Shown: in pieces, positions 32,275-47,679 of the stretch
Numbering within the stretch: the stretch's first letter is position 1
Layout of the letters: every line of letters starts with the position of its first letter
Origin: a virus
Reading direction: 5' to 3' (one strand)
Length of the DNA stretch: 64,000 nucleotides
IMG/VR virus record: IMGVR_UViG_3300048927_000308
Coordinates: 1-64,000 of that record
Position numbers and translations under genes: made by a program
Notes under the pieces: generated by a model
Seen by the model: only the letters and a program-made list of their open reading frames with translations
Told to the model about the DNA's origin: nothing
Database searches by the model: none

Positions 32275-32696
32275 GGAAGCTCCAATCCTTAGAATTTTTC
32301 TACCCCAAAAGTATTAGGGGTGCTGGCGTGAGAACCAGCCTCAAGAGGCCCGGCTAACAGCTGGGCCATCAGCTGTCTGTTCAATGGCGAACCGGACGAG
32401 GCCAGCTTTGTCTGGGCCGAACTTGATCGGATTCTCACCCTTGTCCGGTTCGCCACCAGTCGCTGCTCTTTTATGGGAGAAAAAATGCAATTTCCTACCA
32501 TCAGTCCGGAGGAGTTTTACGCAGCCTGCCGGGAGCTACATTTACCCCACACAGCAATCGCAGTTTCCGCTTTATCACGCCATTTCTTGATAACACACCC
32601 TGAAAGTTCAAACTTTTGCCCTCGTTTGTTCCTTCGCTCACTAAAACGTCAATCACTGGCTTATATCCGTATCGCTCGCGCTAGGCGGGAGCCTCC
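32275..32696 (-). ncRNA. Candidate large structured non-coding element between genes 24 and 6
   Basis: Nested complementary arms seen by eye: 32688-96/32275-83, 32575-82/32324-31, a perfect 13-bp 32443-55/32385-97, and several local hairpins. Confidence 0.5.
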
Positions 32697-44513: not shown

Positions 44514-45571
44514 GCCGTCACCTCTTCAGTATTGCCCACCAGCTCCATGCGGTTTTCATGGGGGTTGAAGCCATCTACCTCACTGCGTCGAAATTTACCG
44601 GCATAGTTCGGATCCTTCGTATAGCCGTTGAACTCTGGACAATGGTAGAGCTGGTGGCCAGTATGGAAAAGGCGGTAAAGCGGCTCGTTGTCAGGGAAAA
44701 GGATCTGCTTCAGTTGGTGCGCGCGCAGGTAGTCCATGCTGGCCACGGCATCGCTCAGCAGCCTTTCCAACTTGCGGCGGCGCGCGTTACCGTTACGTTT
44801 CTGGCGCGGATTTTCCGGGCGCTGTACATAAAGGTCAAAACTGGCCTTGTTGCCGATCCCATAGCGGCCCCAAGCGACGTACCACATATTGTTGATGTTG
44901 TACCAAGCAGTGCCGGTCATGATCCGGCCTTTATGGTCGAACCACCAGACGCGAATCCCCGGTGCCAGTTGCTGGCCTTCAGCAGATTTGTAGTTGTAGG
45001 TGTATGGGTTCTTTTTCAGGTACTCGGCCCAATCGCCGTTATTGTTCCAGCTAGACCGGTAATCAGCCTTGATGATGTCCATATTGGTTAATTTGCCGGG
45101 ACCAATGTCGCTCCAGCCCGGATCCTTTTCCATCAGGCGGTAGCCGTCGAAGACGTTGGTCAGGTAGGTGACTATCCGGTTGCGGGTCCGCAACATTTCC
45201 ATGCGCATCAGGTATGGCATGTGTTTTTCTTTATCGGACTGATAGCGGCCCTCGTAATCAGGGCGGTTCGGCGCGTTCACGTTCTGGAAAAACTCCAGCT
45301 CAATGCTGCGGCCGTGAAGCTTCAGATCAGCTTTTAGATCGCCTTTGGTGCAGTAGCGGAACTGGCGGGCAAAATTAACGCCGTACCGGTCAATATCCTC
45401 CTGCGGGACCACCACCAGCCAACCCAGGCGATTTAACGTCTGAATGACGCGGCGGAAGACGTCACGCTTGAATCCGCGTTCATAGGCATCGTCCACGCGC
45501 TCCGGGTTTTCCCATATATACAGGCAGGCATCGCCCAGGCGGATATCACCATTTCTTTTAATCTGTGCCAT
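44510..45571 (-). CDS. Hypothetical protein between loxP and cre
   Basis: 353 aa with GAGGT RBS. Confidence 0.8.
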   Translation of the reverse strand: MAQIKRNGDIRLGDACLYIWENPERVDDAYERGFKRDVFRRVIQTLNRLGWLVVVPQEDIDRYGVNFARQFRYCTKGDLKADLKLHGRSIELEFFQNVNAPNRPDYEGRYQSDKEKHMPYLMRMEMLRTRNRIVTYLTNVFDGYRLMEKDPGWSDIGPGKLTNMDIIKADYRSSWNNNGDWAEYLKKNPYTYNYKSAEGQQLAPGIRVWWFDHKGRIMTGTAWYNINNMWYVAWGRYGIGNKASFDLYVQRPENPRQKRNGNARRRKLERLLSDAVASMDYLRAHQLKQILFPDNEPLYRLFHTGHQLYHCPEFNGYTKDPNYAGKFRRSEVDGFNPHENRMELVGNTEEVTA

Positions 45572-45741: not shown

Positions 45742-45770
45742 TATATTTGATCACGTGATCAGGGTAAATA

Positions 45771-45804
45771 ATAACTTCGTATAATGTATGCTATACGAAG
45801 TTAT
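45771..45804 (+). other. loxP: loxP recombination site
   Basis: ATAACTTCGTATA ATGTATGC TATACGAAGTTAT, identical to canonical loxP. Confidence 0.99.
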
Positions 45805-45847: not shown

Positions 45848-45864
45848 TAATTTATTAGAGCAAT
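45848..45864 (-). promoter_or_regulatory. C1 operator
   Basis: ATTGCTCTAATAAATTA. Confidence 0.85.
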
Positions 45865-45925
45865 ACAAAAATCACATCATAACGTGCCCTTTGTCAGAAA
45901 AGATGGCATATCTAGTTGCGCTTGT

Positions 45926-45954
45926 TTGACAATTGCTCTAATAAAATTTAAATT
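45926..45954 (+). promoter_or_regulatory. Sigma70 promoter with a C1 operator as its 17-bp spacer (coi operon)
   Basis: TTGACA-ATTGCTCTAATAAAATT-TAAATT. Confidence 0.85.
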
Positions 45955-46120
45955 TTGCACGCCTTGTGCCGGGGGCCATTTCGCTTGCTAAGCCCCGGCA
46001 CATTGGCCACTGATTGCCAACGTTAAAAGCAGCGCCGGCACACAACGGTAAGAGCATTGAGTATGTGACGACATCCCGGTAAGACCAGGCACATTTCCCT
46101 GGCGCGGCAGTGCTCTAATC

Positions 46121-46249
46121 GTTGTGGGTGTAGCTTAAATGGTAGAGCGCCTCTTGAAGGAGGAGTTGAGCGCTGCCCAAGGTTCATTACCCGGGGCATC
46201 TCATACGGCTGGCCAGACGTTATCCGGGTTCGAGTCCCGGCACCACAAC
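46121..46249 (+). ncRNA. tRNA-like structured RNA (non-canonical)
   Basis: D-arm GCTT-AAATGGTA-GAGC, T-arm CCGGG-TTCGAGT-CCCGG, acceptor GTTGTG(G)GTG/CACCACAAC. The anticodon loop is shrunken, the variable region is ~60 nt, and there is no CCA end. Confidence 0.65.
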
Positions 46250-46509
46250 TTGATCTTGAAGGTAGCGCCCAGCCGGAGGTGGCGAGTAACACCGGCAGCA
46301 ATAGCAGTAAGCGGGAATCCTCCAACACCTGAGCCGCACGATCCCGAATGCCGTACGCGCCATTTTGTGAATAGGGACAAGAAGGCAAACGAGGCCTGAA
46401 TGGTCGGACTGAGATATTGCCGCTTAGCCCACGTCAAGGGCCAATTACAGGAACATTGGGCTGCCCTGAAGGGGCTCTGTGATGCGATTTTCTAAGTAGG
46501 GAACTCACG

Positions 46510-46719
46510 ATGGCTTTTACAACTCCTACCACTGATGATGTTAGAAATTATTCTAACGATTTGTCTTTAGACCTCACTTCACCCGACGCTGCTCGTATTC
46601 TTACCGAGCATCACCTCAAGCTCTCAAACCAGGACTACCGCGTCTCAGATGACGACCGGAACGACTTGGAAGACTCCATTGAGTACCAGATCTACACCCT
46701 CCTCACAGAATCCTCTTGA
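46510..46719 (+). CDS. coi: C1 inactivator Coi
   Basis: 69-aa acidic protein MAFTTPTTDDVR..., similar to P1 Coi and upstream of c1. Confidence 0.9.
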   Translation: MAFTTPTTDDVRNYSNDLSLDLTSPDAARILTEHHLKLSNQDYRVSDDDRNDLEDSIEYQIYTLLTESS

Positions 46720-46735
46720 ATGCTCTAATAAATCT
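46719..46735 (+). promoter_or_regulatory. C1 operator upstream of c1
   Basis: AATGCTCTAATAAATCT. Confidence 0.8.
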
Positions 46736-46827: not shown

Positions 46828-47679
46828 ATGGTCAACTATGTCTATGGCGAGAAGCTATACAGGGAATTCGTTAAGTTTAGGGAGCAATTTCTTGCCAGTG
46901 CTGTTGAGCGCGCGCAGCATGTAGACACAGCAAGCGATGGGCGGGCGGTTCGTCCGGTTGTTGTTTTGCCATTCAAAGAAACAGATCGCATCCAGGCTGA
47001 AATTGATAAATGGACCGCGATGGCCAGCGAGCTGGAGCAGTATCCAGATCTTAACGTGCCCAAGACCATCCTTTACCCTATTCCAAATATTCTACGTGGA
47101 GTAAGGAAGGCTACAACCTATCAAACAGAAGCTATTAACAGCGTCAATATGACCGCTAAACGCATTATTCATCTGTTGGATAAAGACATTCGTATTCAAA
47201 CGACATCTGATACGAGTGATTGGGGAAAGAAATATATAAGCAATCTTGAGAAAACCAAAAAAATATTTGAACAGTTCCCTGATGATGAAAAGTTCAGAAT
47301 GAGGATCCATGGTTTCAGCGAAACAATGCTGAGAGTCCACTACATCTCCACCAGCCCTAATTTTAATGGTGGCAAGTCAGTGCCTTACCATGTTCCTTTG
47401 TGTGGGGTATTCATCTGCGATGAAACTTTACGGGATGGATTGTCCATTGGGCCAGAGTTTGAAAAAGAGAAGTTTAGCTTATACGACTCGCTTGAACCTA
47501 TTATTTGTGACCGCTGGCCACAAGCTAAAATTTACCGAATGAAAGATATCGAAGATGTTAAAGGTAAACTTGCACAACTCAGAGAAAATAAGAAAGCACA
47601 ATCAGCAGCTTCCACAACTCGCACCCGTAAAACAAAATCGGGAAATTCAGTTAATGAAAATCCCGATAGTGCCAAATAA
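46828..47679 (+). CDS. c1: Primary repressor C1
   Basis: 283 aa starting MVNYVYGE, as P1 C1; convergent with pacB. Confidence 0.93.
   Translation: MVNYVYGEKLYREFVKFREQFLASAVERAQHVDTASDGRAVRPVVVLPFKETDRIQAEIDKWTAMASELEQYPDLNVPKTILYPIPNILRGVRKATTYQTEAINSVNMTAKRIIHLLDKDIRIQTTSDTSDWGKKYISNLEKTKKIFEQFPDDEKFRMRIHGFSETMLRVHYISTSPNFNGGKSVPYHVPLCGVFICDETLRDGLSIGPEFEKEKFSLYDSLEPIICDRWPQAKIYRMKDIEDVKGKLAQLRENKKAQSAASTTRTRKTKSGNSVNENPDSAK

What the first reader, a model, noticed from the sequence alone, without database searches (positions are those of the whole stretch)
45961..46500. Long structured leader with a tRNA-like domain and alternative pairing upstream of antirepressor coi
Seen in sequence: a C1-repressed promoter (45926-54) is followed by ~550 nt with no credible ORF before coi. 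The leader has a GTGCCGGGG/CCCCGGCAC hairpin, a long stem CACAACGG..AGAGCATTG / CAGTGCTCT..TCGTTGTG (46041-59/46108-26), and a tRNA-like unit (46121-46249) with good D and T arms, a 4-6 nt pseudo-anticodon loop, a large variable region and no CCA. GTTGTG (46121-26) can pair either upstream (46041-46) or downstream (46244-49), so the two folds are mutually exclusive. Established: the P1 C4 antisense RNA is a cloverleaf matured by RNase P and controls antirepressor synthesis. Inference: an RNase P/III-processed RNA switch controlling coi, or a tRNA decoy for host anticodon nucleases.
Basis: partly seen in the sequence, partly recalled or inferred. Interest (0 to 1): 0.75.

Follow-up and report, generated by a model that had tools for sequence, protein, structure and literature searches.

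The report
tRNA-shaped RNA module in coi leader
The 550-base gene-free stretch in front of this P1-like phage's antirepressor gene is built from two conserved, mobile RNA modules: a long hairpin also found in phage lambda and P1, and a 129-base tRNA look-alike that many enterobacterial phages place behind repressor-controlled promoters and whose function nobody has tested.

Summary
The promoter at 45926-54 carries a C1 operator. About 555 nt then run to coi with no ORF that is conserved in relatives. The leader holds a 10-bp 5' hairpin, a 19-bp long stem (46041-59/46108-26) and a tRNA-like unit (46121-46249). GTTGTG can pair either way.

New here: the tRNA-like unit is not a decayed tRNA. It belongs to a family of at least 41 distinct sequences with one conserved six-helix fold (98.8% of cells paired, 14 pairs with compensatory changes). 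Members sit in lambdoid prophage pL leaders, in P1-like plasmids and in this immC leader. PGAP labels one a 129-nt "tRNA-Met". ARAGORN finds no tRNA.

The long stem belongs to the hairpin family of the lambda late leader and the P1 ban leader.

The CACAAC/GTTGTG/CACAAC competition holds across the family: the hairpin wins in 40 of 46 precursors, by 5 kcal/mol here. It also occurs in lambda and next to a real tRNA-Arg, so it is not a coi-specific switch.

Best reading: a repressor-controlled, processed RNA array that releases a stable tRNA mimic. Processing and function are inferred; no RNA data were found.

The scan has noted related arrays before on other DNA (pL leaders, P1 ban leader).

The parts
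45848..45864 (-). C1 operator (counterpart of P1 Oc1e)
   Evidence: 1 mismatch to the 17-bp C1 operator consensus. Same position relative to lox and the promoter as in P1.
45926..45954 (+). Sigma-70 promoter (P1coi/P99d counterpart) with a C1 operator at 45932-45948 between the hexamers
   Evidence: The block TTGTTTGACAATTGCTCTAATAAA is conserved with P1 and a Salmonella P1-like plasmid (A3). P1 annotation.
45965..46002 (+). 5'-proximal hairpin (10-bp stem, 18-nt loop), about 10 nt after the likely transcription start
   Evidence: I2, 100% complementary. JK004 keeps it through a G-C to G-U change. The Salmonella relative has a different small hairpin at the same place. A role as a 5'-end stabiliser is inferred.
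46041..46126 (+). Long-stem hairpin cassette: arms 46041-59 and 46108-26, folded 48-nt centre
   Evidence: I1. The same centre sits in different, compensated stems in PHB10 and the ECL404 plasmid (A5; 92% paired, 5 pairs changed on both sides). The stems are nearly identical to the lambda late-leader hairpin at lambda 44789-44861. The motif also flanks the tRNAs of the P1 ban leader.
46121..46249 (+). tRNA-like RNA. Acceptor 46121-30/46241-49 (9 bp with a bulged G). D arm 46133-48. Hairpin 1 46150-63. Hairpin 2 46167-46203 (7-nt loop UUCAUUA at 46183-89). Hairpin 3 46205-20. T arm 46224-40.
   Evidence: Rfam tRNA 32.9 bits. Covariance model R1: 148.5 bits, the only match in the window and in the phage record. 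Family structure 98.8% paired, with 14 pairs changed on both sides.
46250..46509 (+). Rest of the leader: conserved blocks shared with JK004 and Salmonella P1-like plasmids, then the coi ribosome-binding region (AGTAGGGAA)
   Evidence: No terminator or promoter was found on the + strand. The structure is not resolved (only 3 lineages). Metagenome contigs break homology at 46266/67 and 46300, which suggests further module joints.
46510..46719 (+). coi (C1 inactivator), 69 aa
   Evidence: 56% identical to P1 Coi over 63 aa, E = 8e-20.
46719..46735 (+). C1 operator before c1 (Oc1ab counterpart)
   Evidence: 2 mismatches. P1 layout.
46828..47679 (+). c1 repressor, 283 aa
   Evidence: 76% identical to P1 C1, E = 2e-171.

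Best explanation
The coi-c1 leader of this P1-like phage is a modular non-coding RNA array. In phage P1 the same place holds the small imcA and imcB ORFs.

When C1 repression is lifted, the promoter at 45926-54 transcribes four things ahead of coi: a 5' hairpin, a long-stem hairpin of the lambda/P1 'CACAAC...GTTGTG' family, a conserved 129-nt tRNA-shaped RNA, and about 260 nt more leader.

The hairpin is made first and is the more stable fold. It holds the 5' strand of the tRNA-like acceptor stem.

Inferred pathway:
1. The long duplex is cut, by RNase III on the analogy of the lambda late leader.
2. This frees GUUGUG to close the acceptor stem.
3. The tRNA-processing enzymes (RNase P at the 5' end; 3' trimming, possibly CCA addition) release a stable tRNA mimic. 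That RNA acts in trans, most probably by binding a protein that normally recognises tRNA.
4. As a by-product, the coi-c1 message is severed from its protected 5' end. This would limit or time Coi synthesis.

Shown: the anatomy, the family, the covariation, the competition of folds, the contexts.
Inferred: the nucleases, the stability of the product, the trans function.
For: Family and fold:
- 45 viral contigs carry the element, as do 10 of the 11 plasmid matches and one of 5,426 E. coli genomes.
- 41 distinct sequences share one structure: 98.8% of cells paired against 40-51% when the partners are slid; 14 pairs with changes on both sides; 0/500 shuffles reach the observed value on four of five measures, 1/500 on the fifth.
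- tRNA core nucleotides are kept: U8, A14, G18G19, the T-loop UUCGAGU/UUCAAAU, and an A15-U48 pair (A2).
- The loops of hairpins 2 and 3 and the junction strands are nearly invariant. That is more than a cleavage signal would need. Part of this invariance was imposed by my search pattern.

Context:
- In four lambdoid loci the element lies 0.3-1 kb after a CI-type repressor gene on the same strand, which is the pL leader position.
- Here it lies after a C1-controlled promoter.
- P1 itself has a C1-controlled leader in which the same hairpin motif flanks tRNA-Asn and tRNA-Thr.

Hairpin:
- Compensated stems around a shared centre.
- The stems match the lambda late-leader hairpin.
- RNase III processing sites in the lambda late leader were reported by Daniels et al. 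1988 (PMID 2849240, cited in PMC7547250).

Order of folding:
- The hairpin is favoured by 5 kcal/mol here, with pair probabilities of 0.986-1.0.
- It is favoured in 40 of 46 family precursors.
Against: - No transcript data: no RNA ends, no proof of cleavage or of a stable product.
- I could not read the positions of the lambda RNase III sites, so equating them with this hairpin is an inference.
- No CCA is encoded, and the sequence after the acceptor stem varies.
- In the window's copy the acceptor has a bulged G. JK004's copy also has a mismatch.
- The element is sporadic: 1 of 151 sampled Enterobacteriaceae genomes and 1 of 5,426 E. coli genomes. It is therefore dispensable.
- No conserved protein partner gene lies beside it.
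- The family was collected with a fixed sequence pattern, so its true diversity, and the real conservation of those segments, is not known.
Confidence: 0.5

Rival explanations
1. Cis-only element. The hairpin and the tRNA shape are just processing and insulator signals. They cut the long early transcript and set the stability and translation of coi-c1 (and of the early genes in lambdoid phages). The excised RNA has no function of its own.
For: - The hairpin family always accompanies tRNAs or modules in polycistronic leaders.
- tRNA-like structures are known RNase P entry sites.
- No partner gene and no encoded CCA.
- Bulges in the acceptor stem are tolerated.
Against: An RNase P signal needs only an acceptor/T-arm minihelix. 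Yet the D arm, the elbow nucleotides, three extra hairpins and the 7-nt loop of hairpin 2 are conserved with covariation across unrelated contexts.
Confidence: 0.22
2. A conformational RNA switch for coi. The choice between hairpin and acceptor pairing senses a signal (a nuclease, a tRNA-binding factor or temperature) and sets Coi synthesis.
For: The two pairings exclude each other. The element lies in the operon that decides between lysis and lysogeny.
Against: - The same triple motif occurs where there is no coi: pL leaders, tRNA clusters of P1-like plasmids, the lambda late leader, and before a real tRNA-Arg.
- The coi start lies 260 nt downstream, and no terminator or RBS-sequestering partner of the switch was found.
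- No riboswitch family matches.
Confidence: 0.12
3. A true decoding tRNA, as PGAP's 'tRNA-Met' label on a homologue implies. It would be either spliced or tolerated by the ribosome with its extra arms.
For: - Rfam tRNA score above threshold (32.9 to 46.4 bits).
- PGAP annotation as tRNA-Met, 129 nt.
- Hairpin 2 carries a 7-nt loop with U33 and mostly CAU.
Against: - ARAGORN finds nothing without an intron.
- With introns allowed it gives Phe(GAA) here and Glu(CTC) elsewhere, using pairings that the covariation contradicts.
- The arm at the anticodon position ends in a variable 4-6-nt loop.
- The CAU loop sits on an 11-bp arm with two internal loops, too long for decoding.
- No known bacterial splicing removes such a segment.
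- No CCA is encoded.
Confidence: 0.05
4. A decayed tRNA or a recombination scar without function.
For: Low tRNA score in the window's copy and a bulged acceptor stem. The element is sporadic.
Against: 41 distinct sequences keep every helix, with 109 cells changed on both sides. Homologues score higher as tRNA than the window's copy does, but all carry the same ~60-nt insert.
Confidence: 0.04

Closest known systems
Long-stem hairpin of the phage lambda late leader (lambda 44789-44861, just after tR'/6S RNA), and the same motif around tRNA-Asn/Thr in the C1-controlled ban leader of P1
   Same: Near-identical stem sequences, CACAAC(A)GGTAAGAGCATTG ... CAGTGCTCT..CGTTGTG. The exact motif occurs at lambda 44790 and P1 70008, with near copies at P1 69067 and 69506. 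The centre is variable. The hairpin is followed by a module that reuses GTTGTG for its own closing stem (I3). It lies in a leader transcribed from a regulated phage promoter.
   Different: The centre is different (shared instead with PHB10 and the ECL404 plasmid). The location is new: the immC (coi-c1) leader. RNase III cleavage is documented only for the lambda late leader as a whole (Daniels et al. 1988), and I could not read the site positions.
T4 stable RNAs C and D (rnaC/rnaD, species 1 and 2) in the T4 tRNA cluster
   Same: Phage-encoded RNAs of 119-139 nt. rnaC visibly carries a tRNA T arm. Both are co-located with tRNA genes and annotated as small, stable RNAs with no function given.
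   Different: No homology beyond the T arm: R1 scores 17.5 bits on rnaC and nothing significant on rnaD. The internal architecture differs, and the phage type is virulent.
Type II tRNAs (tRNA-Leu, tRNA-Ser) with a long variable arm
   Same: The best host matches of model R1 are tRNA-Leu(GAG) at about 40 bits, then tRNA-Ser and tRNA-Leu(CAG). Hairpin 3 lies where a variable arm lies. The A15-U48 pair and a mostly-A discriminator position are shared.
   Different: An extra 37-nt arm (hairpin 2). No 7-nt anticodon loop at the anticodon position. A 9-bp acceptor stem. No CCA.
P1/P7 C4 antisense RNA (Rfam RF01695)
   Same: A structured P1-family regulatory RNA. From my own knowledge, not tested here: it is matured by RNase P and controls an antirepressor (ant).
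   Different: No sequence or model similarity. The real C4 of this phage lies at 32380-32460 (56.4 bits). C4 acts on immI, not immC.
Anticodon arm of initiator tRNA
   Same: The apex of hairpin 2 (two G-C pairs plus the loop NUCAUAA and CCC) matches the 12-nt core GGCTCATAACCC of an initiator tRNA (L076). The match is at least 10/12 in 32 of 40 family members, 12/12 in JK004 and 10/12 in the window.
   Different: The third G-C pair is replaced by A-C. Position 32 is mostly A or U. Nine members have other loops (UUCGCAA, AUCGUUA, UUCAUUA). A 12-nt likeness could be inherited or due to chance.

Membership tests
Canonical tRNA (Rfam RF00005) | Acceptor stem contiguous with a 5-bp T stem and a GTTCRA T loop | tested here: met
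   T arm 46224-40, CCGGG-UUCGAGU-CCCGG. The acceptor is paired in 95.9% of cells across the family. The window's copy has one bulged G.
Canonical tRNA (Rfam RF00005) | D arm with A14 and G18G19, plus U8 | tested here: met
   UA-GCUU-AAAUGGUA-GAGC at 46131-48. The D stem is 100% paired in A7.
Canonical tRNA (Rfam RF00005) | 5-bp anticodon stem with a 7-nt loop directly after position 26; total length about 70-95 nt | tested here: not met
   Hairpin 1 at that position has a 4-6-nt loop of variable sequence. The total length is 129 nt. Rfam must skip 60 nt. ARAGORN finds none.
Canonical tRNA (Rfam RF00005) | A consistent anticodon identity and an encoded or addable CCA end | tested here: not met
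   Three programs give three identities: Met (PGAP) and Phe or Glu (ARAGORN -i). No CCA is conserved after the stem. Whether CCA is added cannot be tested here.
129-nt six-helix tRNA-like family (model R1, built here; not in Rfam) | Full-length match to the covariance model with all seven helices | tested here: met
   148.5 bits, E = 6.6e-39, model positions 1-141. The window's sequence was part of the seed alignment, so the match is partly by construction. Its 96%-identical relative JK004 scores 142.5 bits, and unrelated contexts score 117-166 bits.
129-nt six-helix tRNA-like family (model R1, built here; not in Rfam) | Preceded by a long-stem cassette whose 3' arm ends in GTTGTG and overlaps the acceptor | tested here: met
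   46108-26 overlaps 46121-30. The upstream flanks printed for all family members show the same arrangement. The ensemble favours the upstream pairing in 40 of 46.
Lambda/P1 'CACAAC...GTTGTG' long-stem hairpin family | Conserved stem sequence with a variable centre, supported by compensatory changes | tested here: met
Lambda/P1 'CACAAC...GTTGTG' long-stem hairpin family | Cleavage by RNase III | not testable with these tools
   Only the title of Daniels et al. 1988 could be verified; the paper is not held. No RNA runs hold the stretch.
C4 antisense RNA (RF01695) | Match to the C4 covariance model | tested here: not met
   No C4 match in 45900-46520 even at E up to 10. C4 lies at 32380-32460.
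Riboswitch / T-box / tmRNA | Match to a curated model; a terminator or RBS-sequestering expression platform | tested here: not met
   Only noise at E up to 10 (tmRNA_permuted 12 bits against a gathering score of 47). No + strand terminator lies after 45976, and none lies near the tRNA-like unit or before coi.

The most novel reading that the evidence does not exclude
The family is an undescribed class of phage 'early' tRNA mimic. It would be an L-shaped scaffold that presents an extra arm copying the anticodon stem-loop of a CAU tRNA (closest to initiator tRNA). It would be made within moments of derepression, and its maturation would be gated by cleavage of the upstream hairpin. It would act as a decoy or competitor for a factor that recognises that anticodon arm. 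Candidates are a tRNA-cleaving toxin or defence nuclease, or a component of translation initiation.
Probability: 0.12. Interest if true: 0.85.

Novelty: new variant of a known kind. Interest (0 to 1): 0.55.

Why it matters
The immC region of P1-type phages decides between lysis and lysogeny. It has been read as protein genes plus operators. Here the place of imcA/imcB is taken by RNA modules that lambdoid phages also put behind their repressor-controlled pL promoter. That points to a shared RNA-level layer in the first minutes after derepression which has not been studied.

The tRNA-like family is absent from Rfam as a family of its own. Automatic annotation mislabels it as tRNA-Met, so tRNA counts and codon-usage arguments for phage-plasmids that carry it are off by one.

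The family offers a clean, testable case of hairpin-gated maturation of a tRNA-shaped RNA. JK004 is a cultured phage that carries the same leader.

Tried and rejected
- RNA evidence: no RNA holder is listed for the stretch. The two wastewater 'RNA?' runs gave only short contigs over 45900-46046 and 46266-46603, none over the hairpin or the tRNA-like unit, and they may be DNA. No conclusion either way.
- Whole-leader stability: z = -1.0, not informative.
- Rfam at E up to 10 on the leader: only the tRNA hit and noise.
- ARAGORN with introns: inconsistent identities, and pairings that the covariation contradicts.
- T4 rnaC/rnaD: an analogy, no homology.
- sRNA-17 (PMC7719688), the Pas sRNA preprint, and a paper on tRNA gene fragments: nothing about this element.
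- Lambda LPR2, a ~63-nt Hfq-bound RNA near 6S (bioRxiv 10.1101/2024.10.31.621285): it might come from the lambda hairpin region, but no coordinates are given in the text.
- Consensus fold of 46250-46512 from three lineages: too little variation to trust.
- The genome contigs pattern scan gave 10 places. Only two (Yersinia massiliensis, Raoultella ornithinolytica) are real family members by the model; the rest are chance matches.
- A lambdoid copy of the element (L013) finds nothing in the isolated-phage collection. A spacer cassette from L023 occurs in only 7 E. coli genomes.
- Complementarity of the hairpin 2 loop to the coi or c1 start regions: none seen by eye.

Full report
**What the window is.** The window is a P1-like phage. 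A loxP-like site lies at about 45770-45803. A C1 repressor gene at 46828-47679 is 76% identical to P1 C1. A 69-aa Coi is 56% identical to P1 Coi. A C4 RNA lies at 32380-32460.

Ten C1-operator-like sites occur in the window, against 0.16 expected by chance. Three of them frame the finding: 45848-64 (-), 45932-48 (+) and 46719-35 (+). The second lies between the hexamers of the promoter TTGACA-17-TAAATT at 45926-54. This is the layout annotated in P1 as Oc1e, P1coi/Oc1d and Oc1ab, and the promoter-operator block aligns with P1 base for base (A3).

After the promoter the similarity to P1 ends. P1 has about 230 nt with the small ORFs imcA and imcB. The window has 555 nt without any ORF that is conserved in its relatives.

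**The observation.**
- a perfect 10-bp 5' hairpin, 45965-74 with 45993-46002;
- a 19-nt long stem, 46041-59 with 46108-26;
- a match to the Rfam tRNA model at 46124-46247 (32.9 bits, threshold 29), with 60 nt skipped after the 5' strand of the anticodon stem.

ARAGORN reports no tRNA. The leader as a whole does not fold better than shuffled sequence (z = -1.0), so the case rests on comparative evidence.

**The tRNA-like unit is a conserved RNA family.**
- The whole leader is shared only with Cronobacter phage JK004 (96%) and, more loosely, with Salmonella P1-like plasmids.
- The 129-nt unit alone recurs at about 83% identity in P1-like and other phage-plasmids of Citrobacter, Enterobacter and Serratia. 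Its neighbours there are different: tRNA-Ile2, lpa/pacA and Tad2.
- A motif scan found it in 45 viral contigs, and in Yersinia massiliensis and Raoultella ornithinolytica.
- It is sporadic: 1 of 5,426 complete E. coli genomes and 1 of 151 sampled Enterobacteriaceae species genomes.

Forty-one distinct sequences share one fold:
- a 9-bp acceptor stem (GUUGUGGUG/CACCACAAC, sometimes with one bulged base);
- a canonical D arm;
- hairpin 1 at the anticodon position, with a short loop of variable sequence;
- hairpin 2, a long arm with two internal loops and a conserved 7-nt loop;
- hairpin 3, at the place of a variable arm, with a GGCC loop;
- a canonical T arm.

On the model-based alignment 98.8% of cells form standard pairs, against 40-51% when the partners are slid. 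Fourteen pairs show changes on both sides, in 109 cells. No shuffle out of 500 reaches the observed value on four of the five measures, and one does on the fifth. The phage record holds one copy and no other tRNA-model match.

**It is not a decoding tRNA.**
- PGAP labels an E. coli plasmid copy as a 129-nt tRNA-Met.
It does so with an anticodon stem that the covariation of hairpin 1 contradicts.
- The loop of hairpin 2 is NUCAUAA in 31 of 40 members. It is UUCGCAA in six, AUCGUUA in two, and UUCAUUA in the window.
- That loop sits on an 11-bp arm, which is too long for decoding, and no CCA is conserved after the stem.
- The best host matches of the family model are the type II tRNAs Leu and Ser.
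- The apex of hairpin 2 resembles the anticodon arm of initiator tRNA: at least 10 of 12 nt in 32 of 40 members. This is a resemblance, not a demonstrated mimicry.

**The long stem is a member of a known hairpin family.** Its 48-nt centre recurs in the lambdoid phage PHB10 and in an Enterobacter plasmid, downstream of the Q antiterminator gene. There it sits in a stem of different sequence that stays paired: 92% of cells paired, and five pairs changed on both sides.

Its stem sequence is almost identical to a hairpin in the phage lambda late leader, directly after the 6S/tR' terminator (lambda 44789-44861). The same motif occurs three times around tRNA-Asn and tRNA-Thr in the C1-controlled ban leader of P1.

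RNase III processing sites in the lambda late leader in vivo were reported by Daniels et al. 1988. I could verify the reference but could not read the paper. That this hairpin is one of those sites is therefore an inference.

**The alternative pairing.** In the window, enforcing the hairpin gives -77.1 kcal/mol and enforcing the acceptor extension gives -72.1. In the ensemble the six outer hairpin pairs have probabilities of 0.986-1.0.

The same competition is built into the whole family:
- Every copy is preceded by a long-stem cassette ending in GTTGTG.
- In 40 of 46 precursors the ensemble pairs GUUGUG upstream rather than downstream.
- A real tRNA-Arg(UCU) in the same arrays overlaps its upstream hairpin by three bases.
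- Lambda follows its hairpin with a module closed by GTTGTGCTG/CAGCACAAC.

So the design is general and not specific to coi. It fits an ordered maturation in which the hairpin forms first, is cut, and the acceptor stem then closes. It fits a coi riboswitch less well.

**Context.** In four lambdoid loci the element lies 0.3-1 kb downstream of a CI-type repressor gene (HTH plus Peptidase_S24) on the same strand. That is the position of the pL leader. Here it follows the C1-controlled coi promoter. The family is thus typically among the first RNAs made after derepression.

**Explanation and its limits.** I read the leader as a repressor-controlled, processed RNA array that releases a stable tRNA mimic and, in passing, severs the coi-c1 message from its 5' hairpin (confidence about 0.5).

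The conservation of the elbow, the extra arms and the loops argues for a function of the RNA itself rather than for a mere cleavage signal. Part of that conservation was imposed by my search pattern.

Rival readings, with rough weights: a purely cis processing role (0.22), a coi switch (0.12), a true tRNA (0.05), a relic (0.04).

No transcript data exist for this phage in the runs on offer. The nucleases, the product and its target are all inferred.

**Relation to earlier notes of this scan.** Earlier notes describe related arrays on other DNA: pL leaders, and the P1 ban leader with 'conserved-stem hairpins' and initiator-like loops. I used them as leads and checked the following myself:
- the lambda hairpin;
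- the P1 ban motifs;
- the T4 analogy;
- the likeness to the initiator arm.

What this window adds is a new site for such an array, the immC leader in place of imcA/imcB, and a defined 129-nt family with a tested structure.

Noticed in passing
window 32380-32460 (+): C4 antisense RNA of the immI region. Rfam RF01695, 56.4 bits, full length.
   Followed up: no
whole phage record (G000, 90 kb): No canonical tRNA gene. The only match to the tRNA model is the tRNA-like unit, whereas P1 carries tRNA-Asn and tRNA-Thr in its ban leader.
   Followed up: partly
L010, L018, L020, L044, L045, L011, L017, about 150-250 nt downstream of the tRNA-like element: A further long-stem cassette displays CGGGCTCATAACCC. 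This is identical over 14 nt to the anticodon arm of initiator tRNA (compare L076 1370-1446).
   Followed up: partly
L007 2043-2184 (Enterobacter plasmid, late leader after Q): A different ~140-nt tRNA-shaped module (T arm GCTGGTTCGACTCCAGC, closing stem GTGATGAAG/CTTCACAAT) follows the same hairpin centre as in the window. Model R1 gives only 22.6 bits, and Rfam finds nothing.
   Followed up: partly
L072 453-547 (lambda 44852-44946): The lambda late leader has a module closed by GTTGTGCTG/CAGCACAAC directly after the hairpin. It shares GTTGTG with the hairpin, as in the window. The ~63-nt lambda RNA LPR2 reported near 6S might map here.
   Followed up: no
L004 / L014 / L021 / L026 / L035 / L037 / L048 / L054, 157 nt upstream of the element: A different ~150-nt cassette (CACAACGGAGTGAATC ... 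GGTTCACTCCGTTGTG, 15-16 of 16 pairs) with a conserved centre and no Rfam match.
   Followed up: no
window 46266/46267 and 46300: Metagenome contigs of relatives lose homology exactly at these points and continue with other sequence, one ending in ...CCACCACACAAC. This suggests further module joints in the downstream leader.
   Followed up: no
L054 3451-4026 and L004 2951-3526: The gene next to the tRNA-like/tRNA-Ile2 pair in P1-like plasmids is annotated as a Thoeris anti-defence Tad2 family protein in one record. PLSDB calls its apparent counterpart in L004 (same position, same 576-bp length) an MW1434 family type I TA toxin.
   Followed up: no
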